A stretch of 64,000 nt of DNA from an uncultured Candidatus Saccharibacteria bacterium (GTDB taxonomy: Bacteria; Patescibacteriota; Minisyncoccia; Phycocordibacterales; UBA918). The notes beneath the pieces were generated by a model, which had not been told where the DNA came from, did no database searches, and was given only the letters and a program-made list of their open reading frames with translations. How positions within the stretch are numbered: position 1 is the first letter of the stretch; every line of letters begins with the position of its first letter. Positions 29,559 to 56,651 of this stretch are shown here, piece by piece. The stretch covers positions 96,679-160,678 of the forward strand of contig CAYOAM010000001.1 of assembly GCA_964402035.1 (NCBI GenBank). The letters run 5' to 3'. The position numbers were made by a program, and so were the translations under genes.

Positions 29559-29702
29559 ATACCCTGAAGTACAAGGGTGAGGTGCGATATCATGACGAGA
29601 AACAACATGCTCGGTAATTTTCTGTTCATATGAGTATGCTTGCTGTAAATAGAGAAGCCGGCTTTACTTTGGTTGGTATGTATGCAGTCCTGTTACAGCG
29701 CT

Positions 29703-30269
29703 ATGATAAAAACGCTTAGACAAAAGTTAGAAAAAGTCTTCGATAAAAAAAGCGAGGGGCAGGATGCTGGCTTCATGCTTACTGAGTTGTTGGTGGTGAT
29801 CGCGATTGTCACTATTTTGTCTTCAGTTGCGTATGCTGCGATTAGTGGTGCACGAGATAAGGTAAAGGATAAGGCGATTATGGCAACCATGCTGGGTATA
29901 CAACTTCGCGCCGCAGCGCTTTACGAAAAAAATGGATGTTACTTGACAACCAGCAGTTGTGCGCTTGTTTCGTCGGTAACATCAGTGGGATCGTATGCTG
30001 GTTTTCTTGATCGGTCTATATCAAAAGACCCAGATATAGCTAATGCGCTTATCTATGTTGATCAACAGACCAGGTTTTCGATGAGTGTACCGATTGTGGG
30101 TTTTTCTGGGGATTGGAAAAGATGGGTTGTGTCTGCTCCCTTAAGGAGTGATCGGACAAAATGGTTTTGCGTAGATAGTACCCGAAACCAACGAATCGTC
30201 AGCGTCCCACTAGGCTCTTTCCTAAATTATGGATTCAATACGATTTCTTTACGCTGTAGGGATTCATAA
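29703..30269 (+). CDS. Type IV pilin-like protein with long (about 23 aa) leader
   Basis: MIKTLRQKLEKVFDKKSEGQDAG|FMLTELLVVIAIV: G-1, F+1, E+5. C-terminal CVDS motif. Confidence 0.75.
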   Translation: MIKTLRQKLEKVFDKKSEGQDAGFMLTELLVVIAIVTILSSVAYAAISGARDKVKDKAIMATMLGIQLRAAALYEKNGCYLTTSSCALVSSVTSVGSYAGFLDRSISKDPDIANALIYVDQQTRFSMSVPIVGFSGDWKRWVVSAPLRSDRTKWFCVDSTRNQRIVSVPLGSFLNYGFNTISLRCRDS

Positions 30270-30572
30270 CCTACCGTCATTCGATGATTGTGAAAGTCCA
30301 AAGGTCAACTGCTGATAGCTATTAATTGAGTTGCGTTGATAGTCAGCACATTCAAGCAGAAGTTACTTTGTTTCGTTTCTGTCTAATCATAAACGTATGT
30401 TGGTATTTATAGAGTCAGCACAAGCTATTCAAGGATTGCTGCTTAAAGATTTTATGGAATATCATGTAGGTAATGATATTTCTTGAGGGGTAGTGTGTAC
30501 AGATCAAGTCTTTTTAGTTATTGCGTGCTAGTATTGAATTAGTAGGTTCGTATGCTGTCTTGGTACAGCGCT

Positions 30573-31223
30573 ATGATAAAAAAGATTAGACAAAAGTTAA
30601 AAAAATTATCAAAGAAAAAAGGTGAGGAGCAGGATACTGGCTTCACGCTTATTGAGATGTTGGTCGTGATCGCTATTATCGCTATCTTATCTTCGGTTGC
30701 GTATACTGCGGTTGGTAGCGCGCGTGCAAAAGCGACAGATAAGGCAATTATTGCGTCACTCGAAGGAATGAGACTGATAGCAAGATCAATATATGAAAAA
30801 AATGGGTGTTATGCCGCAAGCGTAGAAGCATGCACGGGCTTTTTGGAGCGTGGTGTACTTGTAACGATTGATGGACACGGAGCGTACGATTGTCGTAATG
30901 GCTCTACAATGTCGGCGTACGCAGGTACCCATTATTTTGATAGTGATCCAAAAATCAAAGCCGCATTAAGAGCAGTAGCAGATCATGTGGGCAATGTTCC
31001 GTATTCTGTGTCTTGCAAATCAAGCGTTGGTGGTGCAGATTGGGTTATTTCTGCTACTTTGAAATCTGATCCGTCTAAGCGATGGTGTGTGGATAGTAAA
31101 GGAAATAGCAGGCTCGTAACACCTGGTACGTTTGCTTATCCACCAATTCTTGCAATACCTCCTAGTGATTTTGGTTTTACAAATCCAGGGTTTGATGGAA
31201 TTTCGCATTGTAAAAGCAGTTAG
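30573..31223 (+). CDS. Type IV pilin-like protein, tandem paralog
   Basis: MIKKIRQKLKKLSKKKGEEQDTG|FTLIEMLVVIAII. Nucleotides around the start codon are near-identical to the upstream paralog. Confidence 0.75.
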   Translation: MIKKIRQKLKKLSKKKGEEQDTGFTLIEMLVVIAIIAILSSVAYTAVGSARAKATDKAIIASLEGMRLIARSIYEKNGCYAASVEACTGFLERGVLVTIDGHGAYDCRNGSTMSAYAGTHYFDSDPKIKAALRAVADHVGNVPYSVSCKSSVGGADWVISATLKSDPSKRWCVDSKGNSRLVTPGTFAYPPILAIPPSDFGFTNPGFDGISHCKSS

Positions 31224-33281: not shown

Positions 33282-33312
33282 AAAAATGTCAAGGTTTAAC
33301 CTTGACATTTTT
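33282..33312. terminator. Bidirectional terminator-like perfect palindrome
   Basis: AAAAATGTCAAGGTT-T-AACCTTGACATTTTT: 15-bp perfect arms with A/T flanks. Confidence 0.5.
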
Positions 33313-33657
33313 AAAATGAAAATCGCATTGCGTGTTTTTATTTTTTGTTTTGGGGTAAAAATCAATATTGCATTTCTTTTATTTTATTTTCTGATGATGA
33401 AGAAGCGTAACTTCTGCACATAGTGTGCACAGTTTATGCAGTAGTTTTCCACACCACTTTTTTATATTTTCTGGCTTAGTTATTTACTAGGCTTAAAAGT
33501 TTTCCACAGAAATGTTTGTCAAGAACATATTTTTTGACAGTGTGACGATGTAATGGTTTTAGATTGTTGACGGTCTATGATGTATAGACGAATGCACTCG
33601 TCATGCATGAGAGCTTCGATCTTTATACATTTGTTATTAATAAGTTGTTCATTGAAA

Positions 33658-35088
33658 ATGAAAAGAATAATCACAAGTATCGGTATGATCGTCTTTGTTG
33701 GGGCGATGATATACGGAGGTACCGGCGCGTTTTTTAACGATACCGAGACCTCAGTCGGCAACGTCTTTACTGCGGGAGCTATTGACCTCAAGGTTGATAG
33801 CCAGCAGCATTACAACAACATGATCTGTGTTGAAAATCCGTCACCAGCTGAAGGAGACTACTACTGGCAGCCAGAAGTAGGATTTACTCCAGGTGTTGGA
33901 CATTACCCAGCGACGGGTACTGTTTGCGATGGTACCTGGACACTTACTGACCTTGGCGCAACAAACAAGTTTTTTAATTTTAGCGACGTAAAGCCAGGTG
34001 ATCAGGGCGAAAACACCGTTTCACTTCATATTGACAACAACCCAGCATGGGCATGTGTCAACATCAAGACGACTGCAAATGACGAAAACACTAATATTGA
34101 GCCTGAAGTAACTGCAGGTGATAACACCACTGGCCCAATCGGAAACGGTGAGCTTGCGGGAAATATTAATTTCCAAGTATGGCTTGACGATGGTGCTATC
34201 GATGGTTTTGGGGGTGAGGACGTAGGAGAAGGTGACAATATCTGGCAGGTAGGTGAACCGGCACTCGCAAGTGGCGCCATGAGCGACATTGTGGGAAATG
34301 GTCTTACGCTCACACTTGCTGATGGTGGTACTGGTAATCCTCTTCCTCCAACAGTAACCGACTATATTGGTATGTTCTGGTGCGCAGGTGATGTAACAGG
34401 TGGTGCAGGAAATCTCGGTTGCGACGGATCAACGATGGATAATACTTCACAGACAGACTCGGTGACCGCTGAAGTTACATTTATGGTTGAACAAGCTCGC
34501 AACAATGCAGCGTTCCGTTGTGTTCCACCGGTAGTTCCTCCAACGGCAACTACAACCATTACGGTTAATAAAGTAGTTGTTAACGACAACGGTGGTACTG
34601 CGGTAGTGGGAGATTTTGCTCTCACTGTGAGTGGTATCGGAGCGGTTGTTTCTGGAGCAGCAAATGTTGTTGCAACAGGTACCTATGATGTCAATGAGAC
34701 GGGAATTGGTGGATACGCAGCAACATTTGGTGGCGACTGTGATGTTGATGGAAACGTGACCGTTACGTCAGGGCAAAATGCTGTCTGTACTATTACCAAT
34801 AATGATATTCCAGCAAGCATCACGCTCAACAAGGTGGTCATCGGAGGTAATGCAACGACTACTGACTTTACACTCCGTGTAAATGGAAACGTAGTTCCAT
34901 CGGGCGGATCAGTGTCAGTCAATGGAAACAGTACACATACGATTAATGAAGATGCACTCGCAGGATACAACTTCACTTCAATAACAGGTGATGCGAAGTG
35001 TCCAGCAGTACTAGGCGGCGCAACATCGGTGTTGAATCTTGCAGAATCAATAACCTGCACGATCACAAACACAGCAGAAATATTCTAG
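33658..35088 (+). CDS. TasA/camelysin-like secreted protein with SipW-cognate signal peptide and C-terminal Ig-like (SpaA/Cna-B-like) repeats
   Basis: MKRIITSIGMIVFVGAMIYGGTGAFFNDTETSVGNVFTAGAIDLKVD matches the SipW-cognate (AFFSDTE...FTAGTLDL) class. Repeated VCTITNND / ITCTITNT beta-domains. Confidence 0.75.
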   Translation: MKRIITSIGMIVFVGAMIYGGTGAFFNDTETSVGNVFTAGAIDLKVDSQQHYNNMICVENPSPAEGDYYWQPEVGFTPGVGHYPATGTVCDGTWTLTDLGATNKFFNFSDVKPGDQGENTVSLHIDNNPAWACVNIKTTANDENTNIEPEVTAGDNTTGPIGNGELAGNINFQVWLDDGAIDGFGGEDVGEGDNIWQVGEPALASGAMSDIVGNGLTLTLADGGTGNPLPPTVTDYIGMFWCAGDVTGGAGNLGCDGSTMDNTSQTDSVTAEVTFMVEQARNNAAFRCVPPVVPPTATTTITVNKVVVNDNGGTAVVGDFALTVSGIGAVVSGAANVVATGTYDVNETGIGGYAATFGGDCDVDGNVTVTSGQNAVCTITNNDIPASITLNKVVIGGNATTTDFTLRVNGNVVPSGGSVSVNGNSTHTINEDALAGYNFTSITGDAKCPAVLGGATSVLNLAESITCTITNTAEIF

Positions 35089-35168
35089 TCCTCTCTAGCC
35101 GTTCAAAGCACCATTCGTGGTGCTTTGCGGGCTGCAGAGAACAGCACTTATATATTTAATAACTTTAT

Positions 35169-36920
35169 ATGCCGCGCATACTATTAAGCCTTGCTCTCAT
35201 CGCTCTTGTCGGTGGATCGCTCGTGTTTGGAGGCACGACTGCATTTTTTTCGGATACTGAATCGTCCGCAGCAAACGTCTTTACGGCGGGTGCTATCGAT
35301 CTTCAAATCGACAATGCGAGCTACTACAACGGTGTGTTTAATGAGGGGACATCGTGGGCGATGACGGATCTAACAGAGACTGAAAAGTTTTTTGATTTTG
35401 CTGACTTAAAACCTGACGACTACGGTGAAGACACCATATCGATTCATGTCGATAGCAATGATGCATATCTCTGCGCGGATGTGACCTTGACCACAAATGA
35501 TGACAATGGTCTCACGGAACCAGAAGTTGATGTTGATCCAAATGGTGACGGAGCTGGCAACGGTGAACTTGCGGATTTGGTGAATTTTATATGGTGGGCA
35601 GATGATGGGGACAATGTACTTGAGGACGATGAACATGCAATATCAAATGGACCATTGGGCGCCCTCGCACTCGGTGAGGTGAACACTATCCCACTTGCAG
35701 ATACGGAGAATAACATTTGGACCGGTACAGCGGGTCCTATCGCTGGTGGTGTAACTAAGTTTATTGGCAAGGCATGGTGCTTTGGTACGCTAGGAACTAC
35801 AACGATCATCGCTCAGGACGGCGTGGGAGATGTGCGCACACCAGCGGATGATAACAACGGAGACCTTGTTGCAGGTACCCCTGAGGATGGAGGTTATACC
35901 TGTGACGGCTCAACGTTAGGTAATGAAAGTCAGACAGATTCTTTGACGGCAGATATCAGTTTTGACGCCGTGCAGGCTCGACACAATCCAAATTTCACCT
36001 GTCTGGGGCCAACAGGCGGGTCAGTGACGACACTTACGTTGGTGAAACTTGTGATCAATGATGATGGTGGTACAGCGTCTTCATCAGCGTGGACGCTTCA
36101 AGCCGATGGTCCGACTGACATTTCAGGCACTTCAGGTAGTGTAAGTGTTACGAATGCACCGGTCGTACCCGGAGCATATACACTCTCTGAACTCAATGGA
36201 CCTGCGGGATATGTTGCTTCGCAATATAGTTGTATCGTAAACGGTGGAGCACCGGTAGTTGGGAATGCAATCAATATTGCGGAAGGAGAATCGGCGGTCT
36301 GTACTATCACAAATAACGATGAGAATGTGAGCTGTGAAATATCAGAAGTGCAGACCCTCATTCCTGACAGTGGCTTTGAAAACCCTGAAGTGACAGCGGG
36401 AGCGCAATGGGATGTCTTCAATTCTCCTGCGGGCGCATGGAACGTGTTATGGCGCGATGACATACCTGCAACCTTTGGATCACAAAATCGCCCAAATCCT
36501 GCACGTCTAGAGATCCATGAAGGTGTGCTTGGTGCCGCCTTTGAAGGAAATCAATACACCGAGCTTGATAGTGATTGGGGTGGACCATTGGATAGCGGTA
36601 ATGGCGAACCAGCATCCGTCACCATATATCAAGACATTCCGACAACACCAGGGAACACGTACAGAATCAAGTTTGCCTTTGCTCCTCGTCCAAATACCGT
36701 AGCGGCTGAAAATAAACTCGAAGTCCGTTGGGGAGGAGACCCTGTGTTTGATAGCGGTAATGTTGCTGATCCAAATGGAGGTATTGAGTGGCAGCCAATG
36801 ACCTTTGATGTCCTTGCTACGACAACAACAACACGACTTCAGTTTACGGATCTTGGCACTGCAAATTCGCTTGGTACATTCCTCGATGACATAAAGCTGT
36901 TTGGTGAAGTGTGCCAGTAG
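35169..36920 (+). CDS. TasA/camelysin-like secreted protein paralog with C-terminal DUF642-like beta-sandwich domain
   Basis: GGTTAFFSDTESSAANVFTAGAIDLQIDN. The C-terminus has GFENPEV...WDVFNS...NQYTELDSDWGGP, shared with 36955, 44488 (twice), and 7276-like modules. Confidence 0.75.
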   Translation: MPRILLSLALIALVGGSLVFGGTTAFFSDTESSAANVFTAGAIDLQIDNASYYNGVFNEGTSWAMTDLTETEKFFDFADLKPDDYGEDTISIHVDSNDAYLCADVTLTTNDDNGLTEPEVDVDPNGDGAGNGELADLVNFIWWADDGDNVLEDDEHAISNGPLGALALGEVNTIPLADTENNIWTGTAGPIAGGVTKFIGKAWCFGTLGTTTIIAQDGVGDVRTPADDNNGDLVAGTPEDGGYTCDGSTLGNESQTDSLTADISFDAVQARHNPNFTCLGPTGGSVTTLTLVKLVINDDGGTASSSAWTLQADGPTDISGTSGSVSVTNAPVVPGAYTLSELNGPAGYVASQYSCIVNGGAPVVGNAINIAEGESAVCTITNNDENVSCEISEVQTLIPDSGFENPEVTAGAQWDVFNSPAGAWNVLWRDDIPATFGSQNRPNPARLEIHEGVLGAAFEGNQYTELDSDWGGPLDSGNGEPASVTIYQDIPTTPGNTYRIKFAFAPRPNTVAAENKLEVRWGGDPVFDSGNVADPNGGIEWQPMTFDVLATTTTTRLQFTDLGTANSLGTFLDDIKLFGEVCQ

Positions 36921-36954
36921 ATGTCTTAAGTCCTCGTCGATCGCGAGTGCACAT

Positions 36955-38433
36955 ATGTCACGCACCTACATAAAAATAGGAGTACGCACAACCCTCATAG
37001 TGGGGGTTGTCGCGTTACTGGTGTATGCACTCGGTGTACGAGGATCTTCTGTTGGGGCAACATTTGCAACGGGGTCAGGCACCGGTGGTCTTGAGATGAA
37101 AATTGATAGTCGTACGATCTATAATGGCGTCTTGCAACCAGCGCTCTCGTGGGCACTCAAGGACCTCACTCCGTGGGCAGACCACTTCTTTAACTTCGGT
37201 GACGTAAAGCCCGGAGATCACGGTACCAACACGATCTCAATTCACATCAAAAAGAACCCAGCATGGGTATGCCTTGATTTTGTGAACCTCAAAGACAAAG
37301 AAAACGGCAAAAATGAACCAGAATCACAGGTTGATGGAACAAGTGATGGTGAGCTCTCACATGAGCTTGAGTTTTTCTCGTGGATGGATGATGGGGATAA
37401 TAAGTACGAAATAGGGGAGCGCGCCCTGTTTGGGACATCCACGCAATCTGCGTTTGAGGTGCTCAAAGGAAAGAGCTATGCACTCGCGGATGCACATACT
37501 GGCACAGCTTTTCCTGCGGGACAAACAAAGTATGTGGGTGTGGTGTGGTGTGCGGGTGATCTCAGTGTCAGTACGACGACGGCCTCTATAGCATGTAATG
37601 GTGAGGCGATGGGTAACGAGGCGCAAACTGACTCCATGAGCCTTGATGTGGCGCTCCGTGCAGTCTCATCAAAAGATCAAAAAAGGTTTTCGTGTACCAA
37701 CGATACACCTGAACCGGCGTTGTGTTTGGCGCGTGGCAACCTCCTCAAGAATGGTAGCTTTGAAAAACCAAAAGTGGGGAGAGCAAAGTGGGACGTATTC
37801 CCTTCAGTTGTGGGCGGACTCGAATGGACGGTCGCTTGGGTTACTCCTGCAACCAATTCTCCTACGGTACCACTCTTGGAATTGCAGCGAGGACTTCCTG
37901 CGTTCGAGGGCAAACAGTTTGCAGAACTCGATTCAGATTTCTATGGACCTCCGGGCGGCAACTATAAAGGCGAAAAAACGTCTGTCGCGATTTCGCAGCT
38001 TGTCGACACAACTCCCGGCGCTCGGTACACACTGACCTTTGCTTTCTCTCCATTGCCGAAAACAAATGCTGCGGACAATGCGGTGCAGGCAGTGATCGGT
38101 GGAGTAGCGCATGGCGCGCCAATCTCACGCAATGGTTCAGCGCTTACGACAACATCATGGACCGAACATACCTTCTCGTTTGTGGCGACGAGTACCAAGA
38201 CCCGGGTAGCGCTCGTTGATGTAGGCAAGACCACTTCGTTTGGAACACTCGTGGATGATGTCTGGTTCGGATGCAAGAATCAGCGAGAGGATGATGCAGA
38301 CGATCATAATGATCATAACGACGACTATGATACGCCGTGGCATGAGGAGCATACGCGTGGTGGCTGGACGTCTGTTGTTGGGTACTGCAAAGAACTTTGG
38401 GATGATATAAAAGGTAAGGGAAAACGCGTATGA
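36955..38433 (+). CDS. TasA/camelysin-like secreted protein, third paralog, with DUF642-like C-terminal domain
   Basis: N-terminal domain paralogous to the two above (FNFGDVKPGDHGTNTISIHIKKNPAWVC). C-terminal NGSFEKPKV...GKQFAELDSDFYGPPGG. The signal-region motif is degenerate. Confidence 0.65.
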   Translation: MSRTYIKIGVRTTLIVGVVALLVYALGVRGSSVGATFATGSGTGGLEMKIDSRTIYNGVLQPALSWALKDLTPWADHFFNFGDVKPGDHGTNTISIHIKKNPAWVCLDFVNLKDKENGKNEPESQVDGTSDGELSHELEFFSWMDDGDNKYEIGERALFGTSTQSAFEVLKGKSYALADAHTGTAFPAGQTKYVGVVWCAGDLSVSTTTASIACNGEAMGNEAQTDSMSLDVALRAVSSKDQKRFSCTNDTPEPALCLARGNLLKNGSFEKPKVGRAKWDVFPSVVGGLEWTVAWVTPATNSPTVPLLELQRGLPAFEGKQFAELDSDFYGPPGGNYKGEKTSVAISQLVDTTPGARYTLTFAFSPLPKTNAADNAVQAVIGGVAHGAPISRNGSALTTTSWTEHTFSFVATSTKTRVALVDVGKTTSFGTLVDDVWFGCKNQREDDADDHNDHNDDYDTPWHEEHTRGGWTSVVGYCKELWDDIKGKGKRV

Positions 38434-39995
38434 AAGTCTTCTACGCCTTATGCCGAGGTTTGTTTATATTCCTATTGCTCGGGGTTGCTGCACTCTTTTT
38501 GGTACCGGTACTTCCTATAACGGGTAATATTGATATCAAGATTGTGAAGTCAGGTTCTATGGAACCTGCGATTATGACCGGGGCGGTTGTTGTGGTACGG
38601 CCACAAGGGGACTATCATATTGGGGATGTGGTGACGTTTCAGAGCGCTTCAGCGGATATTCCGACTACGCACCGGATAGTGGAGCAGCGTGCAGAAGGAA
38701 ATGCGCTTTTTTATACAACCAAAGGAGATGCCAATGAAGAAGCTGATACAGAAGAGTCGCCAAAAACCGCGGTTATTGGAAAGGTTCTGTTTTCTATACC
38801 GTACGCAGGATATATTCTCGATTTTGCACGACAGCCATTGGGATTTATGGTCCTTATTGTACTCCCGGCGTTTTTGATAGTTTTTGATGAAATAGAAAAA
38901 ATCTGGCGAGAGTTTAAAAAATTGCGCAGCAAAAAAGAAATTGTCGGTGTTGCTGACCTAAATTCGAATAGCGCAGTATCACAAGAGACGGCAGTTGATA
39001 CGCGACCGCCGCTGCGTATGATGGAGATTAATGTGCCAGTGTATCCGCGGGGATACGGCAACAAAGCACTAAATGCCTATGGCCACACCGCTATCTTGTC
39101 CCTTCCACAAAAGCGCTCACTCCCTGCGTATGTTGAATGGTGTATGGCAGCATTGTTTTCTGTTGTTGTGTCCGTAGCACTCGTTGGTGTAGGTTCTGTC
39201 GGATCGACGGTCTCATATTTCAGTGACACCGAGGGGACTATTGCCAATGCACTCATGGCGCGTTTTCTAGATTTTACTGCTAGTGCGGATGCGCAAACAC
39301 TCACGTTTATTGGTACGGAACTTGCCGATAATAGTGCCGTCGCGTCAATGATTGTACCCTTGTCTGGGAGCGCTGATGTGCTCTACACCATGCACGTAGA
39401 AACGGCGACCGGTACTGATGCATTTTGTGGTGCGATTTTGACGCATCTTGATTCACCGATTAGCTATGATGGTCCACTTCGTGACCTTTCATTTGACGAA
39501 GCGCTATTGCTTGGTGACGATTGGCAAATGTTCCCGACACTTGCGCCCGATGCGGTCTTTGTCCCTGGGGAGATATGCGTGCTCGATATTGTCTATCAAG
39601 GGCGTGATAGTGATAGTCCGGTTGGTGGGTACAGTGATGAAGAACGGGTGAGTCTACAATTTACCGCACCTATCGATATTAGTGGCGCAATCGTAGAACC
39701 GTTTGCTGCACCAGCATTTCTGATATTTTCTGAACATGGAGAAGCTGAGTTACCTACTGAAGAAGCTACAACAACAGAAGATGAGCATGCGTCGTCAACT
39801 CCACCTAGTGAAGTCTTGGACATCGTGTCACCTGAGGCAGTGGTGCCAGAGGATATACCATCTGCGAATACGGTCGAAATTGAGGATGAGGAAGTGACGG
39901 AAGAAACGGAGGAAGTGGAACTCCCGATTGACGTGGAAGAGGAAACAATACAAGAAGAGACGGTAACTGAACCTGTCGTGACGGATACTGTATAA
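38430..39995 (+). CDS. sipW: SipW-type (S26B, archaeal/ER-type) signal peptidase I fused to a C-terminal TasA-like/acidic domain
   Basis: SGSMEP catalytic Ser motif, H at TTHRI, TKGDANEE box, and N- and C-terminal TM helices like B. subtilis SipW. Then about 330 extra aa carrying a second TM plus a SipW-cognate-like motif (VGSTVSYFSDTEGTIANALMA) and an acidic E/T/V-rich tail. Confidence 0.8.
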   Translation: MKVFYALCRGLFIFLLLGVAALFLVPVLPITGNIDIKIVKSGSMEPAIMTGAVVVVRPQGDYHIGDVVTFQSASADIPTTHRIVEQRAEGNALFYTTKGDANEEADTEESPKTAVIGKVLFSIPYAGYILDFARQPLGFMVLIVLPAFLIVFDEIEKIWREFKKLRSKKEIVGVADLNSNSAVSQETAVDTRPPLRMMEINVPVYPRGYGNKALNAYGHTAILSLPQKRSLPAYVEWCMAALFSVVVSVALVGVGSVGSTVSYFSDTEGTIANALMARFLDFTASADAQTLTFIGTELADNSAVASMIVPLSGSADVLYTMHVETATGTDAFCGAILTHLDSPISYDGPLRDLSFDEALLLGDDWQMFPTLAPDAVFVPGEICVLDIVYQGRDSDSPVGGYSDEERVSLQFTAPIDISGAIVEPFAAPAFLIFSEHGEAELPTEEATTTEDEHASSTPPSEVLDIVSPEAVVPEDIPSANTVEIEDEEVTEETEEVELPIDVEEETIQEETVTEPVVTDTV

Positions 39996-40027
39996 AAACG
40001 CCCACGAGTATTGCTCGCAGGCGCGTG

Positions 40028-40447
40028 TTAATGGAGTGTTCTGTACTCGAGGGGTTCCTCATCGTTGTTTTCGTTTGGTAGCTCCTCCTCCGTGATAATC
40101 TGCCACTTATGATTGATGTTTATTATATTTTCGAACGGTATCTGGTACGTTAGATGTGTTTCTATGCCGAGCATATTTTGGGTCAGTTCAAGGACACGCT
40201 CACATCCTTCTTCGTCAAGCTCATTTCCGTCGATGACGCCGGGAATTTTCTGGTCGAGCGCATGTTGCATCTGCATGTACAGTGTAAATACTCTTTTGAT
40301 ATCGTCCGTTGCTGGACCCCAGACGTACAATCCGTCTCCCTCAAGTTCAGGAGTAATGAATTCAGAAGGCACAAGTGCGCTCAGGTGAGACGCTATCATC
40401 GTGAGAAGGTCGGGGAGGCCTATGTGCTTGGACATCTTCTCCTCCAA
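40028..40447 (-). CDS. Hypothetical acidic protein
   Basis: ORF with a GGAGGA RBS upstream. No recognisable domain. Confidence 0.35.
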   Translation of the reverse strand: MEEKMSKHIGLPDLLTMIASHLSALVPSEFITPELEGDGLYVWGPATDDIKRVFTLYMQMQHALDQKIPGVIDGNELDEEGCERVLELTQNMLGIETHLTYQIPFENIININHKWQIITEEELPNENNDEEPLEYRTLH

Positions 40448-43235: not shown

Positions 43236-44138
43236 TTAGTTACTTATCGTGATGTCAATAACTTCAGATACTTCATCTTCTGAAAGTCCAGTGCGATCGA
43301 CAATTTCAGCAATGATCTCATTTTCATCGGTGAGATCAAGAGTGAAACTCTGGTGAGAGTCATCCTCGTAACTGATTCGAACGCTTGCTTCACCATCTTC
43401 TATTTCAACTTCAATCTCGAGCTCTCCGTCTTCAAAGCTGATAAGGTCCCGTACGGTATCTTCATCAATATCAAGCTCTTCGGCAATACCCTCAATGACT
43501 TCGTTGTGTTTGGTGGTATCAAGTGAGAAAGAATCCTCCGTTCCGTCAGCAAATTCAACCGTAACCTCAGAATCTCCCCCATCAAATTCGACGCTAATAT
43601 CTTCCACTTCATCTGCTAGGTCAACAAATTCGATCAGGTCATCGACATCTTCGCGGTCCATGTTTAGCTCGTCCGCAAGCTCGTCTATGATGTCATTTCT
43701 ATCGGTGGTATCGAAACTAAATGTCTCGGTGTCACCATCTTCGAACGTGACCACTGCTTCGGCTTCGTCTTCCTCCTCGTTCAGCGTCACTTCAACCTCA
43801 TCTACTTCTTCGGAATCTTCATCGTCGTTTGAATCGTCGTGATCATCATTTGACTCATCTTCATCATGATTTGCGTCGTCATGGTCGTCATTTGATGCAT
43901 CATCATGACTGTGACCTCCTTGCTGTTGCAGTATGCTGAGGAGCTGTCTCAAAAGTGTTATCAGTGCCTGCATCTGCTTTATTTGAGCAGATTCAGCGGT
44001 ACCAAGTGTAACAGTAGCAGAGTGGGTTTTTGCGTGACTTGCTTCACCTTCATCTATGCTGTGGTCGGCGGCCACTCTTCCGAGCGGGAGAGCAATAAAT
44101 GCAAGGATGACCAACAATGTTAACGATGTTTTTTTCAT
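43236..44138 (-). CDS. Secreted acidic repeat protein (paralog of 21556..21975) with three 45-aa internal repeats
   Basis: Signal peptide; IKQMQALITLLRQLLSIL; HDDASNDDHDDANHDEDESNDDHDD; three repeats of FSxDTTxxNxxIxExAxEL..D.EDV.DLIxF. Confidence 0.6.
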   Translation of the reverse strand: MKKTSLTLLVILAFIALPLGRVAADHSIDEGEASHAKTHSATVTLGTAESAQIKQMQALITLLRQLLSILQQQGGHSHDDASNDDHDDANHDEDESNDDHDDSNDDEDSEEVDEVEVTLNEEEDEAEAVVTFEDGDTETFSFDTTDRNDIIDELADELNMDREDVDDLIEFVDLADEVEDISVEFDGGDSEVTVEFADGTEDSFSLDTTKHNEVIEGIAEELDIDEDTVRDLISFEDGELEIEVEIEDGEASVRISYEDDSHQSFTLDLTDENEIIAEIVDRTGLSEDEVSEVIDITISN

Positions 44139-44487: not shown

Positions 44488-47400
44488 ATGAATAGCCTCA
44501 CAAAATTGGGCTTTGCGGTAGAAAAAACACTTGCTGTGCTGCTGCTTTTGAGTATGGTATTTGGGCAGTATGCATTGGTATTTGCTGAAATTGAAGGGGA
44601 GACTATTCCCCCTGTAGAAGAGGTTGTCAATGAACCGGATACACTAGGCGATGCTCCGGTTTCAAATGAAGAGACAGCGACCGATGAGGAGACACCTCCA
44701 CCCGTGCCTGCGGACGAGTCGTTTAAAGAAGAGACTGAAGAATCGTCCCTTGCACCTGCTACTTTCGCTGCAGTGGTGCCACTCTCTACGATATCCGGGT
44801 TCAAATTTGATGATGTTGATGCTGACGGTGTGTGGGATGCATCTGAAGCTGGTCTTCCTGGTTGGACGATTGAATTGCTTGATACAGACAGCGAAGTAGT
44901 GGGCTCGGATGTCACAGACACAACAGGGCAGTACTCATTTGATGTCGCTCCTGGCATTTTTACCGTTCGTGAGGTCGCACAATCTGGATATATACAGACT
45001 GCACCCGCGGATCATACTTGTTTTTTTAACGTAGAAGAGGATCCGGTTTTGGATCAAAATGAAGGCGCAAAATTTGCTGCAGCACCACATGGTTATATCT
45101 GTAATTTTGGTAATCACCAGATTGAGGTCCCGGACGACACCATGGGGCAATGTATTGGTGAAAATTTGCTTGCAAACGGCAGTTTTGAGAATCCTGATGT
45201 TGTCGATGGTGCTGGGTGGGATATCTTTACTTCCGGAACTTCGGGCCTTGCGTGGGTTGTTTCGTGGGTCAGTGCATTTGTCGGGGCACCGTCTGTAGCA
45301 AATATTGAGTTTCATGGAGGAGTTAATGGCTGGTTGGCAGAAGATGGAAGCCAATATGCTGAATTAGATTCCGATTGGGCGGGGCCAACCAGTAATCAGG
45401 CTGGTGAACAGGCATCATCACGCATTAGTCAAACAGTCCCAACTATTCTTGGGGGAACATACCAACTTACCTTTGATTTTTCTGCGCGTCCTAACTATGG
45501 AACAAGCGAAAATCGCGCTGGTGTGTACATTGATGGCGTACTTACCGATACAGTGTCTGCAAACGGTACCGCTCTTTCAAATACAAGCTGGACCGAGCAC
45601 AGCTACTCATTTATCGCGGATACCTCAACGGAGATTGCGCTTGCTGACGCTGGTACACCAAACTCAGTCGGTTCATTTGTGGATAATGTCTCACTATGCC
45701 TCATTGAGCGGCCAGTAGTACCACAGTGTGCACCGGAACTAAATGGTGGATGGGCAGATCATGTTGTGGGGACACCATCTCAGGGCGATAGAAAAGACGG
45801 ATCCGATGTCTTGGGGTCCCGTTCTGACGCCACCGATGCACTTGATGCTTCAGATTGGGAGCCAGGAGATACTGATGGCTTTTATAGCCTCGGTTTTGGT
45901 GGATCGATCGTAGTGTCTTTTGACAGTTTTGTGCCAGATATCGCTGGAAACGATATCTCGATCCATGAGGCAACAAACGGAGCATTTCCAGCTGGATACC
46001 CTGAAGAAAAGGCATTGATAGAGGTAAGTCAAAATGGTACCAATTGGTTTGCCGTTGGCACTGCAACAAATCTTGTTGCCGCTGATCGTGTGAGTTATTT
46101 TGATGTTGCAAGCACAGGACTCTCGTGGATCAAATTTGTACGTATAACAGATACGTCAGACACGGCACTATACGCTCAATATCCTGACGCTGACGGTTTT
46201 GATCTTGATGCTGTTGATGCAACACAAACCGTGTGCGATGAGCCTGAAGACCACGAACATGACACCGCGACGCTCTATGGATATAAATGGAATGACCTAA
46301 ATAACAATGGTGTAGAGGATGAAGGTGAGCCAAAACTTTCAGGATGGACCATTACCGCCACCGTTGGAACCACAACGTATGTTGATGTGACTGACGCACA
46401 AGGTGCGTATAGTTTAGAGGTGCCGGCAGGGTCAGTGGGTAGTGTGGATGAGACTGCACAGGCAGGATGGTTGCAGACGTATCCACTTGAAAGTGGTGTA
46501 TGCAATTTTGAAGTTGGTGAAGGGGCAGAATTTTTCTGTAAATTTGGAAATTACCATCTTCCCACACAGACTACCTGCGATGCCGAGGTAAATCTCTTGG
46601 GTAATGGAAGTTTTGAAGCACCCGCCGTTGGTGAGGCGCTGTGGGATGTATTTCCTTCTGAGCTGGATGGACTGGTGTGGACTGTTGCATGGCTCGATAC
46701 GACCGGAGCGCCAGAAGTACCACTCCTTGAATTGCAAAGTGGGCGTACGCCAGCAGATGGGTTGCAGTTTGCAGAACTTGACTCAGACTTTTATGGTCCG
46801 CCCGGTGGCCCATACAGTGGAGAGCATACCTCAGTGAAAATATCACAAGCCGTATCCACTATCCCAGGATATCTATACAAGCTTTCATTCCAGTTTTCTG
46901 CGCTGCCATACTCAGCCTCGTCTGATAATGCAGTAGCGGTTAGATTGGGAGGGGTTCAGCAGGGGGCACCGGTCACTAGTGATGGTTCCTTAAGTCCTGA
47001 TACCGTATGGTCAACCTATACCTATAACTATGTTGCTACAGGGTCTACGACAGAAGTTTCTCTTGCTGATGCAGGATTAACAAATTCGTTCGGTACATTG
47101 GTAGATGATGTCGCCTTTACATGTCTGGGCGCGAATCAGGGCGATGGACCAGAGGGAAGTGGTGATAATCCGAACCCTGACAATACCGACAATGGTGGAG
47201 GCGGTGGCGGAGGTGGCGGTGGTAGCCGTATAAGTCTCTCGGGAGGAGGAGGTTCGTCACAAGGTGGAAATAATAATAGTTCTGACGGGGAAGTGCTTGG
47301 CGACAGTGACCACAAATCTGTACCTGAAGTTGCTGGCGCTCAGACCGCCATCTTGCCTACCGGCGCTCCTAATACTGGTTTTGGTGGTACATCTGACGCA

Positions 47401-47490
47401 GCAACAACTACGGCACTTGAAATAATTGCCTTTATGTCGTTTCTTCTTATGCTCGGGGGTATTGTCGTGTTGCGACGCATGGACGCATAA
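44488..47490 (+). CDS. Giant cell-surface protein: signal peptide, 2x SdrD/Cna-B-like domains, 2x DUF642-like domains, Gly-rich linker, C-terminal LPXTG-like sorting signal
   Basis: GFKFDDVDADGVWD...VREVAQSGY (Cna-B-type) twice. NGSFENP...AELDSDWAGP twice. G10 linker. C-terminus ILPTGAPNTGFGG + hydrophobic helix + RRMDA. Confidence 0.8.
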   Translation: MNSLTKLGFAVEKTLAVLLLLSMVFGQYALVFAEIEGETIPPVEEVVNEPDTLGDAPVSNEETATDEETPPPVPADESFKEETEESSLAPATFAAVVPLSTISGFKFDDVDADGVWDASEAGLPGWTIELLDTDSEVVGSDVTDTTGQYSFDVAPGIFTVREVAQSGYIQTAPADHTCFFNVEEDPVLDQNEGAKFAAAPHGYICNFGNHQIEVPDDTMGQCIGENLLANGSFENPDVVDGAGWDIFTSGTSGLAWVVSWVSAFVGAPSVANIEFHGGVNGWLAEDGSQYAELDSDWAGPTSNQAGEQASSRISQTVPTILGGTYQLTFDFSARPNYGTSENRAGVYIDGVLTDTVSANGTALSNTSWTEHSYSFIADTSTEIALADAGTPNSVGSFVDNVSLCLIERPVVPQCAPELNGGWADHVVGTPSQGDRKDGSDVLGSRSDATDALDASDWEPGDTDGFYSLGFGGSIVVSFDSFVPDIAGNDISIHEATNGAFPAGYPEEKALIEVSQNGTNWFAVGTATNLVAADRVSYFDVASTGLSWIKFVRITDTSDTALYAQYPDADGFDLDAVDATQTVCDEPEDHEHDTATLYGYKWNDLNNNGVEDEGEPKLSGWTITATVGTTTYVDVTDAQGAYSLEVPAGSVGSVDETAQAGWLQTYPLESGVCNFEVGEGAEFFCKFGNYHLPTQTTCDAEVNLLGNGSFEAPAVGEALWDVFPSELDGLVWTVAWLDTTGAPEVPLLELQSGRTPADGLQFAELDSDFYGPPGGPYSGEHTSVKISQAVSTIPGYLYKLSFQFSALPYSASSDNAVAVRLGGVQQGAPVTSDGSLSPDTVWSTYTYNYVATGSTTEVSLADAGLTNSFGTLVDDVAFTCLGANQGDGPEGSGDNPNPDNTDNGGGGGGGGGGSRISLSGGGGSSQGGNNNSSDGEVLGDSDHKSVPEVAGAQTAILPTGAPNTGFGGTSDAATTTALEIIAFMSFLLMLGGIVVLRRMDA

Positions 47491-48162
47491 ATGAACCCAC
47501 AGCAAAAAAAAGAAAACATAGGTCGCCACCGTCGTGTGGCGACCTATGTTGTAATGGGGCTTGCATGCATAGTGTATCTAAGCGCAAGTTACCTTTTGTG
47601 GAAACAGCGGGCTCCTCTGGCCGAAACCATCGTACAAGAATCAATACCCACAGCAACAACATCGCTTGGAATATCTTTGCCTCGTGCAATACCAATACGT
47701 CTTCATATACCGAAAATAGGGATTGATGTACCATTTGCGGCTCCGCTTGGTGTAAAAGAGAACGGGGAAGTTGAAGTGCCGAAAACATATGATGAAGTTG
47801 GGTGGTATCAACATGGTCCAACGCCGGGTGAGCGAGGTCCATCGGTCATCTTTGGCCATGTTGATTCGAAAGCAGGACCTGCAGTGTTTTATTCGCTAGG
47901 ACAGGTTGCTCCAGGTGATGAGGTGGTCGTCGATCGCATCGATGGGACGAGTGCAACATTCATCATTCATAAACTGGAACGGGTTCCTCAAGGTTCGTTT
48001 CCTACTGAATCGGTGTACGGAGACGTCGATCAATCTGAATTGCGACTCATAACATGTACTGGTACGTATGATCGCGGAGTATTGCGCTATAGTCACAATC
48101 TTATTGTATACGCAACGCTTGCAGGCAATATTTCTGCAACGACGTCACCGGTTAGTTTCTAG
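47491..48162 (+). CDS. Sortase (class E/F-like transpeptidase)
   Basis: N-terminal TM anchor; His motif VIFGHVD; catalytic LRLITCTG (TLxTC); downstream conserved Arg (RGVLRYS). Starts one nt after the stop of the sorting-signal protein. Confidence 0.8.
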   Translation: MNPQQKKENIGRHRRVATYVVMGLACIVYLSASYLLWKQRAPLAETIVQESIPTATTSLGISLPRAIPIRLHIPKIGIDVPFAAPLGVKENGEVEVPKTYDEVGWYQHGPTPGERGPSVIFGHVDSKAGPAVFYSLGQVAPGDEVVVDRIDGTSATFIIHKLERVPQGSFPTESVYGDVDQSELRLITCTGTYDRGVLRYSHNLIVYATLAGNISATTSPVSF

Positions 48163-56117: not shown

Positions 56118-56188
56118 TGATGTGGGTAAATCATGGCAGACGTTATGCGTTTGTATCGTATAATGGTGCTATGTAGTTTCGGCACTAT

Positions 56189-56650
56189 ATGTCCTTTCTT
56201 CAACGTCTAAAAGGTAAAGGGGTCCACGCGCAGAAATTGCAATCTGCCGAGGAGGAAACTGCACTTGATAAAATAGTGCAGCTGGATGTTGATGTATTTC
56301 AGACCGATGACACGATCGTCGTGTATGCACAGGCAGCTGGAGCCGAGCTTGCGGATATTAAGGTTTCAATTGAAGGGGATGCTGATATTGTGCTTATAGA
56401 AGGAAAACGTTTACGTCCTGATCGCATAGCATTTCCTAAAATAAAACCTGAAGGCGCTTTTTTTACGGAAGAGTGTATTTGGGGAGATTTTTACCGACGG
56501 ATCATTTTGCCAGAAGGTGTTGACATAGCACATGCTGAAGCAAAGGTAAAAAATGGTGTTTTGATACTCATTTTGCCACTCCTGCGGTCAGAAGAACGTG
56601 AGAAGGTGCAGCTGCATGTAAAAAATGCCGAAAAAGGTCGCAAATCATAA
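56189..56650 (+). CDS. Hsp20/alpha-crystallin small heat-shock protein
   Basis: ACD motifs: VDVFQTDDTIVVYAQAAG, GEF.RRIILPEGVD, AKVKNGVLILILP. Confidence 0.8.
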   Translation: MSFLQRLKGKGVHAQKLQSAEEETALDKIVQLDVDVFQTDDTIVVYAQAAGAELADIKVSIEGDADIVLIEGKRLRPDRIAFPKIKPEGAFFTEECIWGDFYRRIILPEGVDIAHAEAKVKNGVLILILPLLRSEEREKVQLHVKNAEKGRKS

Positions 56651-56651
56651 T

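What the first reader, a model, noticed from the sequence alone, without database searches (positions are those of the whole stretch)
33515..39995. tapA-sipW-tasA-like extracellular fibre island: three TasA/camelysin-like SipW substrates plus a SipW signal peptidase
Four co-directional genes end-to-end (33658-35088, 35169-36920, 36955-38433, 38430-39995). Three encode proteins whose N-termini carry the SipW-cognate signal class (GGTGAFFNDTETSVGNVFTAGAIDLKVD; GGTTAFFSDTESSAANVFTAGAIDLQID) and share a TasA/camelysin-like N-terminal domain. Each then diverges into a different C-terminal beta-domain set (SpaA/Cna-B-like VCTITN repeats, DUF642-like NGSFE...ELDSD domains). The fourth is the dedicated S26B peptidase (SGSMEP). 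In Bacillus this module builds biofilm amyloid-like fibres. Here it sits in a CPR/Saccharibacteria-like genome and is expanded to three structurally distinct substrates, suggesting a modular surface-fibre or adhesin system distinct from the type IV pili also encoded here.
Basis: partly seen in the sequence, partly recalled or inferred. Interest (0 to 1): 0.8.

Follow-up and report, generated by a model that had tools for sequence, protein, structure and literature searches.

The report
TasA-like fibre operon with fused peptidase
A four-gene operon of an ultra-small (Patescibacteria/Parcubacteria) bacterium encodes three TasA-like surface proteins and a SipW-type signal peptidase that is itself fused to a fourth substrate-like module; this is most likely a kit for building a strand-swapped surface fibre, and is a new variant of a known kind of system.

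Summary
The four co-directional genes are real and at the stated coordinates. They sit on a 453-kb contig, and the same module recurs in dozens of Patescibacteria genomes.

It shares the domain but lacks the ~11 residues equivalent to the TasA donor strand. None of 120 C-type homologues has the motif, against 119 of 120 B-type.

Gene D is an ER/archaeal-type (S26B) peptidase. It continues through a basic cytoplasmic linker and a third membrane helix into a conserved cleavage-site/donor-strand motif, an Ig-like domain and an acidic tail. In most relatives this module is a separate gene just downstream of the peptidase.

Best reading (inferred, not shown): a SipW-dependent donor-strand-exchange fibre. 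A and B would be adhesin-bearing shaft subunits, C a strand-less end subunit, and the D C-terminal part a TapA-like initiator.

TasA homologues in Patescibacteria and multi-paralogue TasA/BsaA operons are already published. The fusion and the strand-less paralogue appear new: a new variant of a known kind.

The parts
33658..35088 (+). Gene A (476 aa): signal peptide, cognate/donor motif, TasA-like N-domain, two SpaA_2 (prealbumin/Cna-B-like) domains; no LPXTG
   Evidence: ORF. TIGR04088 20.0 bits against a cut-off of 19; PF12389 29.4 bits over residues 12-50; PF19403 in two stretches. C-terminus has no sorting signal. A-type orthologues are 32-51% identical in the syntenic loci L002, L005, L007 and L008.
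33730..33762 (+). A residues 25-35 (FFNDTETSVGN): predicted mature N-terminus, equivalent to the TasA donor strand
   Evidence: Aligned by motif to TasA residues 28-38, the donor strand. Cleavage after GGTGA is inferred from the TasA site. -3 T and -1 A are conserved in the family.
35169..36920 (+). Gene B (583 aa): signal peptide, cognate/donor motif, TasA-like N-domain (residues ~26-285), SpaA_2 (287-380), DUF642/choice-of-anchor-C domain (C-terminal ~190 aa)
35244..35276 (+). B residues 26-36 (FFSDTESSAAN): predicted donor strand
   Evidence: F1, F2, D4, E6, S8 and N11 of the mature protein are >=90% conserved. These residues are disordered in the monomer model (pLDDT <50). -3 T in 117/120, -1 A in 116/120, P2' F in 120/120.
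36955..38433 (+). Gene C (492 aa): N-terminal TM/signal, TasA-like N-domain without the donor/cognate segment (GATFATGSG...LEMKIDS), DUF642/choice-of-anchor-C domain, His/Asp-rich tail
   Evidence: No TIGR04088 or PF12389 hit. Alignment with A and B. C-type orthologues sit immediately upstream of the peptidase in 15 of the 81 loci (L001 = the window, plus 14 others); 2 further listed rows lie elsewhere. 0/120 homologues have the motif and 97/120 have G-x-TFAT.
38430..39995 (+). Gene D (521 aa): fusion of a SipW-type peptidase with a substrate-like module; its start overlaps the stop of C by 4 nt
   Evidence: ORF. 239 homologues; almost all of the 120 listed are 410-600 aa long and cover most of the query. 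10 fused and 58 split arrangements among 83 peptidase genes in 81 loci.
38430..38939 (+). D residues 1-170: TM1 (~9-31), catalytic domain (S43, H81, D100, D106), TM2 (~137-155)
   Evidence: TIGR02228 106.7 bits (cut-off 51.85); NF046067 SipW 111.9 bits (below 190). SEC11A/C at about 2-5e-8. S43, H81, D100 and D106 are invariant in 61 sequences. TM segments.
38895..39134 (+). D residues 156-235: K/R-rich linker, predicted cytoplasmic, with the conserved motif R-M-[MI]-[DE]-I-x-x-P (residues 196-203)
   Evidence: 13 K/R against 7 D/E. M197 in 94/120, D/E199 in 116/120, P203 in 111/120. Function unknown.
39135..39203 (+). D residues 236-258: third TM helix, acting like an internal signal peptide (N-in, C-out)
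   Evidence: Hydropathy. In split relatives the equivalent segment is the N-terminal signal peptide of a separate protein.
39204..39275 (+). D residues 259-282 (STVSYFSDTEGTIANALMARFLDF): internal SipW-cognate/donor-strand-like motif
   Evidence: TIGR04088 14.9 bits, below the cut-off. T260 in 113/120, S262 in 106, Y263 in 106, D266 in 116, E268 in 117, N273 in 119. -3 T in 86/95, -1 S in 84/95, P2' F in 77/95.
39276..39674 (+). D residues ~283-415: Ig-like beta-sandwich domain
39675..39992 (+). D residues 416-521: acidic low-complexity tail (about 26% Glu)
   Evidence: Composition. Tails of fused relatives are 20-38% D+E.
39998..40024 (.). G+C-rich hairpin between the end of D and the convergent gene 40028-40447(-): probable end of the operon
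   Evidence: Terminator-like site with 11 pairs, scored on the - strand.

Best explanation
The locus is a SipW-dependent, TasA/BsaA-type surface-fibre (or fibre-displayed adhesin) operon of a Parcubacteria-like bacterium.

Shown by sequence and comparison:
- D is an ER/archaeal-type signal peptidase.
- A and B have a signal peptide followed by a cleavage context (T at -3, A at -1, aromatic residues at P1' and P2').
- Next comes a nearly invariant segment homologous to the TasA donor strand, then a jelly-roll domain whose closest solved structure is the TasA fibre subunit.
- They end in variable adhesin-like C-terminal domains.

Inferred mechanism:
- After Sec export the pre-proteins are held in the membrane by their signal peptides.
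- The peptidase cuts before the FF/YF pair and frees the N-terminal strand.
- That strand inserts into the groove of a neighbouring subunit, giving a polymer of A and/or B decorated with SpaA-like and DUF642 lectin-like modules.
- The C-terminal part of D has the same cleavage/donor motif but a complete Ig-like domain instead of the jelly roll. It would be a donor-only subunit that starts the fibre, as TapA does, and it would be made in a 1:1 ratio with the peptidase at the same place, probably released by self-cleavage after TM3.
- C keeps the acceptor domain but has lost the donor strand. It can therefore only accept a strand and would occupy the opposite end of the fibre as cap, terminator or anchor.
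- Which end faces the cell is not determined.
For: - Peptidase type.
- Cognate motif in A and B.
- The TasA donor strand is residues 28-38, directly after the SipW cut (PMC9674648). An aromatic P2' residue is the feature that makes TasA a SipW substrate rather than a LepB substrate (PMC10269814 abstract).
- hhalign aligns the signal plus donor segment with a Firmicute TasA homologue that sits next to sipW.
- D C-terminal part: the motif is conserved in 120 homologues, the domain is Ig-like, and the topology puts it on the same side of the membrane as the active site.
- In 58 of 83 cases this module is a separate gene, adjacent to the peptidase gene and often overlapping it, with its own N-terminal signal peptide.
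- Three fusions (L011, L017, L034) keep only the TM helix plus motif, without the Ig domain.
- TapA is a complete Ig fold with an unstructured donor N-terminus. It acts only at initiation, and its gene overlaps sipW (PMC10151520).
- C-type paralogue: 0/120 carry the motif against 119/120 for B-type. It sits immediately upstream of the peptidase in 15 of the 81 loci, and the core residues invariant in A and B are kept in C.
- The A-B-C-D order is conserved in L002, L005, L007 and L008.
- A model in which a membrane-anchored monomer accepts a strand before SipW cleavage has been proposed for C. perfringens BsaA (PMC11580942).
Against: - No filament has been seen and no expression data exist for this organism.
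- Sequence similarity to TasA is limited to the signal and donor segment: PF12389 matches residues 12-50 only, and hhalign aligns 34 columns at 88% probability.
- Conservation of the motif could reflect peptidase recognition alone rather than strand donation.
- The D C-terminal domain matches no TapA structure or model; it is a generic Ig-like fold.
- Self-cleavage of D, polymerisation, and the roles of C and the D C-terminal part are untested.
- No multimer prediction could be run.
Confidence: 0.6

Rival explanations
1. A, B and C are monomeric secreted or cell-surface adhesins/lectins (jelly-roll carbohydrate-binding-like domain plus SpaA and DUF642 modules). They merely depend on a dedicated SipW-type peptidase for export, and no fibre is formed.
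Against: The best structural match is the TasA fibre subunit. The segment after the cut is nearly invariant and disordered in the monomer model. A paralogue that lacks exactly that segment, and a partner that has only that segment plus an Ig domain, are conserved next to the peptidase. Monomeric adhesins would not easily explain this.
Confidence: 0.2
2. The C-terminal half of D is not a released fibre subunit. It would be a permanently attached part of the enzyme, either a pseudo-substrate that regulates the active site or a membrane-tethered docking platform or anchor for the other proteins.
For: The fusion is stable in >100 homologues. A conserved cytoplasmic linker motif, R-M-[MI]-[DE]-I-x-x-P, suggests a function for the intact protein. 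Three fusions keep only the TM helix plus motif.
Against: In most genomes the same module is a separate protein with an ordinary N-terminal signal peptide and the same -3/-1/P2' cleavage context as bona fide substrates. Cleavage is therefore the simplest expectation.
Confidence: 0.12
3. The proteins form a two-dimensional surface coat (S-layer-like) or a matrix, rather than discrete fibres or pili.
For: TasA and BsaA are matrix components in Firmicutes. The family is very abundant in Parcubacteria.
Against: Known members polymerise linearly by donor-strand exchange. End-specific paralogues (donor-only, acceptor-only) fit a linear polar polymer.
Confidence: 0.06
4. The locus is an artefact: a chimeric contig from a Firmicute, or a frameshift-generated false fusion in D.
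For: None found.
Against: The contig is 453 kb with even GC. The flanking genes are typical CPR genes. Ten fused loci occur in different GTDB species, and independent assemblies give >100 fused proteins. The identical protein is recorded from NCBI, ENA and Logan.
Confidence: 0.02

Closest known systems
Bacillus subtilis tapA-sipW-tasA operon (TasA fibre, PDB 8AUR; TapA, PDB 6HQC/8AIF)
   Same: A dedicated ER-type signal peptidase is encoded with its substrates. The mature N-terminus carries the F-x-D...F-x-x-G-x-L-D-L motif, which in TasA is the donor strand. The subunit is a jelly roll. There is a donor-only accessory protein with a complete Ig-type fold, encoded next to or overlapping the peptidase gene.
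   Different: The gene order is [three TasA-like genes]-sipW-[TapA-like]. The TapA-like module is fused to the peptidase here. The subunits are twice as long and carry SpaA and DUF642 domains. The N-domain is 265 aa with four invariant Cys and an invariant W-x-D-D-G-D-N, and no sequence similarity to TasA is detectable beyond the first ~40 residues. The Ig domain does not match TapA. A strand-less paralogue has no B. subtilis counterpart.
Clostridium perfringens sipW-bsaA-bsaB-bsaC (BsaA exchange-and-lock polymer; PMC11580942)
   Same: SipW is encoded with several TasA-family paralogues and an accessory secreted protein. The proposed assembly takes place at the membrane, with cleavage after strand acceptance. 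Family operons often contain SpaA and choice-of-anchor domains.
   Different: Whether the N-E-K isopeptide triad exists here is unknown. There is no VWA protein. Dependence on type IV pili is not indicated: pilin genes are near the module only in this window and 2 of 80 other loci.
Bacillus cereus sipW-calY1-bc1280-calY2 (camelysins; CapP/BC1280 chaperone)
   Same: Several camelysin/TasA paralogues are encoded with SipW, and one paralogue is proposed to take over the TapA role.
   Different: B. cereus has no fusion and no adhesin domains on the subunits. No BC1280/CapP-like gene was noticed in this operon, though none was specifically searched for.
Archaeal donor-strand filaments (Pyrobaculum AbpA bundling pili 7UEG; Sulfolobus thread 7PNB)
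   Different: No dedicated peptidase is encoded with the AbpA operon (not checked for the Sulfolobus thread), and the structural similarity is much more distant.
Chaperone-usher pili (FimH tip, FimA shaft, FimI terminator)
   Same: The logic matches: a polar polymer with shaft subunits that both donate and accept, plus end subunits that can do only one of the two. The D C-terminal Ig domain weakly resembles chaperone-usher pilins and chaperones.
   Different: There is no homology, no usher and no periplasmic chaperone. The organism has a single membrane, and the donor strand is exposed by signal-peptide cleavage.

Membership tests
ER/archaeal-type signal peptidase I (MEROPS S26B; SipW-like) | Scores above the curated cut-off of the archaeal/ER-type SPase I model | tested here: met
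   TIGR02228 106.7 bits against 51.85. The bacterial-type model TIGR02227 gives only 18.8 against 47. Best PDB relatives are SEC11A/C.
ER/archaeal-type signal peptidase I (MEROPS S26B; SipW-like) | Ser-His(-Asp) catalytic residues instead of the Ser-Lys dyad | tested here: met
   S43 (SGSMEP), H81 (TTHRI), D100 (KGDAN) and D106 are invariant in 61 aligned homologues. The catalytic assignment is by alignment to SEC11 and established knowledge of S26B.
ER/archaeal-type signal peptidase I (MEROPS S26B; SipW-like) | Equivalog of Bacillus SipW | tested here: not met
   NF046067 gives 111.9 bits against a cut-off of 190. The protein is SipW-like, not an orthologue by NCBI's criterion.
ER/archaeal-type signal peptidase I (MEROPS S26B; SipW-like) | Cleaves the neighbouring cognate pre-proteins | not testable with these tools
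   Only gene linkage and the cleavage context (-3 T, -1 A/S, aromatic P2') were observed.
SipW-dependent-type signal peptide proteins (TIGR04088) | N-terminus scores above the model cut-off (19 bits) | tested here: met
   A scores 20.0 and B 25.9.
SipW-dependent-type signal peptide proteins (TIGR04088) | The same test, applied to protein C | tested here: not met
   No hit at E<=0.1. 0/120 C-type homologues carry the motif.
SipW-dependent-type signal peptide proteins (TIGR04088) | The same test, applied to the internal segment of D (residues 247-268) | tested here: inconclusive
   14.9 bits, below the cut-off. However, the motif G-S-T-V-S-Y-F-x-D-x-E-S-S-x-x-N-x-L-x-A-x-x-L-D-F is conserved in 120 homologues.
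TasA/camelysin family (Pfam PF12389 Peptidase_M73) | Pfam hit above the gathering score | tested here: met
   A scores 29.4 and B 25.4 against 22.5, but only residues 12-50 match profile positions 13-51 of 196. C has no hit. 31 of 48 family members hit.
TasA/camelysin family (Pfam PF12389 Peptidase_M73) | Jelly-roll fold of the TasA subunit | tested here: met
TasA/camelysin family (Pfam PF12389 Peptidase_M73) | Equivalog of B. subtilis TasA | tested here: not met
   NF046066 gives 14.8-19.5 bits against a cut-off of 450. A profile search of PDB sequences finds nothing.
TasA/camelysin family (Pfam PF12389 Peptidase_M73) | Polymerisation by donor-strand exchange | not testable with these tools
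   Indirect evidence only: the donor segment is conserved and is disordered in the monomer model.
TapA (TasA anchoring/assembly protein) | SipW-type signal followed by an unstructured N-terminal segment resembling the TasA donor strand | tested here: met
   The D 259-282 motif parallels that of A and B. Its first ~20 residues have low confidence in the model (pLDDT 53-57).
TapA (TasA anchoring/assembly protein) | Complete Ig-type domain that cannot accept a strand | tested here: inconclusive
TapA (TasA anchoring/assembly protein) | Sequence homology to TapA | tested here: not met
   No Pfam or NCBIfam TapA hit, and no PDB sequence hit outside the peptidase part. It is therefore a functional analogue at most.
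BsaA-type exchange-and-lock polymers | Asn (donor strand), Lys and Glu (acceptor) triad forming an intermolecular isopeptide bond | not tested
   An invariant Asn is present (N11 of mature B; N273 of D in 119/120), and an invariant Lys sits in D-[LV]-K-P. Equivalence to BsaA N35/K74/E56 could not be established without the BsaA sequence or a multimer model.
Sortase-assembled Gram-positive pili (SpaA type) | C-terminal LPXTG sorting signal on the subunits, with a pilin motif | tested here: not met
   A, B and C end without LPXTG or a TM segment. The nearby sortase (47491-48162) follows a different protein that does carry LPTGA. A sortase-motif (TLxTC) regex found no hit in any of the 81 loci, but the check was weak and would probably have missed the window's own sortase, which is cut off at the edge of L001.

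The most novel reading that the evidence does not exclude
Parcubacteria build a chaperone- and usher-free, polar donor-strand-exchange pilus.
- Its initiator (donor strand plus Ig domain) is physically fused to, or translationally coupled with, the signal peptidase that creates every donor strand.
- The peptidase would then be the assembly platform.
- A dedicated strand-less paralogue (C) closes or anchors the other end.
- The shaft subunits display interchangeable lectin and adhesin modules.
- This could be the main non-type-IV attachment organelle of these episymbionts.
Probability: 0.3. Interest if true: 0.8.

Novelty: new variant of a known kind. Interest (0 to 1): 0.58.

Why it matters
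Patescibacteria are thought to live attached to host cells, but apart from type IV pili their surface organelles are almost unknown.

This module is very common in Parcubacteria: more than 2,400 clusters of the B-type protein, 59-69% identical among the best 120. It is therefore probably a major surface structure.

The fusion of the peptidase to a TapA-like donor module is natural 'Rosetta-stone' evidence for a functional coupling of SipW and the fibre initiator. In Bacillus that coupling has only been suspected, from the overlapping tapA and sipW genes.

The conserved donor-less paralogue gives a concrete, testable prediction of fibre polarity and termination in the TasA superfamily, for which no terminator is known.

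The proteins are small and soluble enough for heterologous expression and cryo-EM.

Tried and rejected
- **PDB sequence searches.** Single-sequence and profile searches with B and its family found nothing. The relationship to TasA beyond the N-terminus therefore rests on structure prediction only.
- **hhalign against a Firmicute TasA homologue.** Only 34 columns aligned.
- **D C-terminal domain as a TapA homologue.** Not supported by sequence or fold search; kept only as an analogy.
- **C-terminal membrane or cell-wall anchor on the split homologues of the D C-terminal module.** None found. There is no terminal TM segment; 'LPxT' strings occur in 5 of the listed proteins (4 split, 1 fused), with no terminal TM helix and so no sorting signal.
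- **Conserved linkage with type IV pilin or sortase genes.** Not found: pilin genes in 3 of 81 loci, sortase in none.
- **Rfam.** No RNA family anywhere in the window.
- **Sigma-70 promoter scan.** No more sites than in shuffled sequence, and none upstream of A.
- **Organism name.** The exact proteins are in NCBI, ENA and Logan but carry no name.
- **RiPP reading.** IMG names these proteins 'ribosomally synthesized peptide with SipW-like signal peptide'. Rejected, because they are 450-580-aa folded multidomain proteins.
- **Metalloprotease reading ('camelysin M73').** Not pursued. The 2025 preprint calls the peptidase assignment a likely misidentification.


Full report
**1. Observation**

The window holds four co-directional ORFs at exactly the coordinates given:
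- A, 33658-35088 (476 aa)
- B, 35169-36920 (583 aa)
- C, 36955-38433 (492 aa)
- D, 38430-39995 (521 aa)

The gaps between them are 80 nt and 34 nt, and C and D overlap by 4 nt. A G+C-rich hairpin at 39998-40024 and a convergent gene follow D. About 500 nt of AT-rich spacer separates A from typA/bipA upstream.

GC content is even across the window. The identical D protein lies on a 452,957-bp ENA metagenome contig, where an independent gene caller gave the same four genes. The chimeric-contig objection therefore fails.

**2. What the four proteins are**

*Proteins A and B.* Both pass the SipW-cognate model TIGR04088 (20.0 and 25.9 bits, cut-off 19). Both also pass Pfam Peptidase_M73/camelysin, but only over residues 12-50.

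*Shared N-domain.* A, B and C share an N-terminal domain of about 270 residues. C-terminal to it:
- A carries two SpaA_2 stretches.
- B carries SpaA_2 plus a DUF642/choice-of-anchor-C domain.
- C carries a DUF642/choice-of-anchor-C domain and a His/Asp-rich tail.
- None of the three ends in LPXTG or a TM helix.

*Protein D, N-terminal 170 residues.* This part is an ER/archaeal-type signal peptidase:
- TIGR02228 scores 106.7 bits against a cut-off of 51.85.
- The bacterial-type model fails.
- The best solved relatives are human SEC11A/C.
- S43, H81, D100 and D106 are invariant.
- It scores below NCBI's cut-off for a Bacillus SipW equivalog (111.9 against 190).

**3.

(a) *C has no cognate signal.* Where A and B read GGT-x-A|FF-x-DTE-x-S-x-x-N-x-FTAG-x-IDLKID, C reads ...VRGSSVGA-TFATGSGTGGLEMKID. 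It lacks about 11 residues.

This is not an accident of one gene:
- 14 loci from other species, plus the window itself, have the same motif-less paralogue immediately upstream of the peptidase. Two further listed rows lie elsewhere.
- Among the 120 best C-type homologues, none has the motif and 97 have G-x-TFAT.
- Of the 120 best B-type homologues, 119 have the motif.

(b) *D is a fusion.* After the catalytic domain and TM2 comes a K/R-rich linker (13 K/R against 7 D/E). A third hydrophobic helix follows (residues 236-258), and then STVS|YFSDTEGTIANALMARFLDF.

- This segment scores below the cut-off on TIGR04088 (14.9 bits).
- It is nevertheless highly conserved in 120 homologues: T260 in 113, S262 in 106, Y263 in 106, D266 in 116, E268 in 117, N273 in 119.
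- It has the same cleavage context as the B family. B-type has -3 T in 117/120, -1 A in 116/120 and P2' F in 120/120. The D-internal site has -3 T in 86/95, -1 S in 84/95 and P2' F in 77/95.
- By the positive-inside rule, TM3 places the C-terminal part outside the cell, on the side of the active site.

**4. Structure predictions**

*B residues 26-290,* modelled with 47 homologues, gave pLDDT 86 and pTM 0.82. The first 15 residues (FFSDTESSAANVFTA) are disordered.

Sequence methods see no similarity to TasA beyond the N-terminus. PDB phmmer and hmmsearch found nothing. hhalign against a Fictibacillus TasA homologue, which lies in a tapA-like/sipW/tasA-like locus, aligned 34 columns at 88% probability.

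**5. Relatives and gene order**

*Family sizes.* The B-type N-domain has more than 2,400 cluster representatives. The best 120 are 59-69% identical and carry Parcubacteria/Paceibacterota names where any name is given. The fused D architecture is found in 239 proteins. Almost all of the 120 listed are 410-600 aa long and cover most of the query, and they are named Kaiserbacteria, Nomurabacteria or Paceibacteria.

*Gene order.* A scan of one genome per GTDB species returned 80 loci. I searched these with my own HMMs for the N-domain, the peptidase and the D C-terminal domain. Of 83 peptidase genes:
- 10 are fused to the Ig module.
- 58 are followed directly by a separate gene for it, often overlapping by a few nucleotides.
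- 15 lack the Ig module. Three of these (L011, L017, L034) are fusions that keep only the TM helix plus the motif.
- 50 have two to four N-domain paralogues directly upstream.

In the split form, the D C-terminal-type protein begins with an ordinary signal peptide. The motif, the Ig domain and a variable tail of about 40 to 1,244 residues follow, and there is no C-terminal anchor.

The order A-B-C-D is conserved in L002, L005, L007 and L008. Identities there are A 32-51%, B 60-66%, C 46-73% and D 34-38%. The C-terminal add-on domains vary between orthologues: C-type proteins have a median length of 340 aa, and DUF642 is present in only a few.

Pilin and sortase genes are not linked to the module elsewhere.

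**6. Mechanism (inference)**

*What is known in Firmicutes.*
- In B. subtilis, SipW cuts TasA before A28. Residues 28-38 are the donor strand that completes the next subunit (PMC9674648).
- A Phe at P2' is what makes the site unsuitable for LepB (PMC10269814).
- TapA has a complete Ig fold and an unstructured donor-like N-terminus. It can act only at the start of a filament, is as scarce as SipW, and its gene overlaps sipW (PMC10151520).
- For C. perfringens BsaA, a model has been proposed in which the newest monomer, still held by its signal peptide, accepts the strand of the oligomer before SipW cuts it (PMC11580942).

*Mapping onto this locus.*
- A and B are subunits that both donate and accept a strand. 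They would form the shaft and display SpaA-like and lectin-like modules.
- The D C-terminal part can only donate. It is a TapA analogue, made 1:1 with the peptidase and probably released by self-cleavage at S262|Y263.
- C can only accept. It would sit at the opposite end as cap, terminator or anchor.
- Which end is proximal to the cell cannot be decided. If growth is at the membrane as proposed for BsaA, the D C-terminal part, with its variable tail, would be distal and C proximal.

*Status of each step.* Shown: domain identities, motifs, their conservation, gene order, and the fused or split state. Inferred: cleavage, self-cleavage, polymerisation, and the roles of the end subunits.

**7. Comparison with what is known, and novelty**

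Already published:
- Wang et al. (PMC9245690) reported that PF12389 homologues occur in Patescibacteria.
- The Melville-lab preprint noted that TasA/BsaA-family operons often hold several paralogues together with signal peptidase, SpaA, choice-of-anchor and sortase genes, and suggested heteropolymers. It does not mention Patescibacteria.

The general reading is therefore a member of a known kind. Five literature searches found no description of:
- the peptidase/TapA-like fusion, or its split form as a conserved gene pair;
- the conserved strand-less paralogue;
- this enlarged N-domain, with four invariant Cys and an invariant W-x-D-D-G-D-N.

I rate it a new variant of a known kind, with moderate-to-good interest.

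**8. Limits**

- No multimer prediction was possible, and the model coordinates could not be inspected.
- The TasA fold match is modest.
- The library of papers is incomplete.

Noticed in passing
window 44488-48162: A 1000-aa surface protein (SdrD_B, CarboxypepD_reg-like and DUF642 domains) ends in ILPTGA followed by a hydrophobic helix and RRMDA. A sortase gene (47491-48162) follows immediately. This is a separate, classical sortase-substrate pair 4.5 kb downstream of the operon.
   Followed up: partly
window 29673-31223: Two paralogous type IV pilin-like genes are present; only 30552-31223 matches the Pfam N_methyl model (motif GFTLIEMLVV), the other has GFMLTELLVV but no Pfam hit. They lie upstream of typA. 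A pilin motif near the module was seen in only 3 of 81 loci, so the adjacency looks incidental.
   Followed up: partly
window 39015-39038 (D residues 196-203): The predicted cytoplasmic linker of the fused peptidases holds a conserved motif, R-M-[MI]-[DE]-I-x-x-P (M197 in 94/120, P203 in 111/120). Similar M-D-[DG]-[IV]-F-x-P strings occur in the long N-terminal regions of some split homologues (L010, L017, L034, L037). Its function is unknown; a relic or alternative start codon is possible.
   Followed up: partly
window 35244-36038 (N-domain of B, also in A and C): Residues invariant across 48 family members include four Cys (C77, C179, C220, C253 of the modelled segment) and W-x-D-D-G-D-N (118-124). 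These suggest two disulfides and a Ca2+-type loop. There is also an invariant D-[LV]-K-P-x-D-x-G and an Asn in the donor strand, which might allow an Asn-Lys isopeptide lock as in BsaA.
   Followed up: no
window 54234-58172: A 627-aa protein has a C-terminal type I dockerin domain, and a neighbouring 515-aa protein has a cohesin domain. These are cellulosome-style docking modules in a CPR genome.
   Followed up: no
window 43236-44138 (- strand): A 300-aa secreted, extremely acidic protein is built of three or four repeats of a ~60-residue unit (…VEFxDGxxExFSxDTTxxNxIIxxIAxELxxDxxxVxxLIxF…). It has no Pfam hit.
   Followed up: no
window 33283-33311 and 33517-33541: A perfect hairpin (AAAATGTCAAGG-TTTAA-CCTTGACATTTT) followed by a T-run lies downstream of typA. 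A second TGTCAAG...TTGACA inverted repeat lies about 120 nt upstream of gene A. This is read from the sequence only; they may be a terminator and an operator.
   Followed up: no
L043 7914-12780 and 15251-16412: One genome locus carries two peptidase/D-C-terminal-type gene pairs about 7 kb apart. The first D-C-terminal-type protein is 1,440 aa long.
   Followed up: no
L011 4440-5603, L017 4408-6237, L034 7974-8999: These peptidase fusions keep the third TM helix and the donor/cognate motif but lack the Ig-like domain. The motif is followed by a low-complexity acidic tail or another domain.
   Followed up: partly
window 22745-24844 and 48226-49419: A CopC-CopD fusion protein (699 aa) and a secreted CAP (cysteine-rich secretory protein) domain protein (397 aa) are also encoded in the window.
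   Followed up: no
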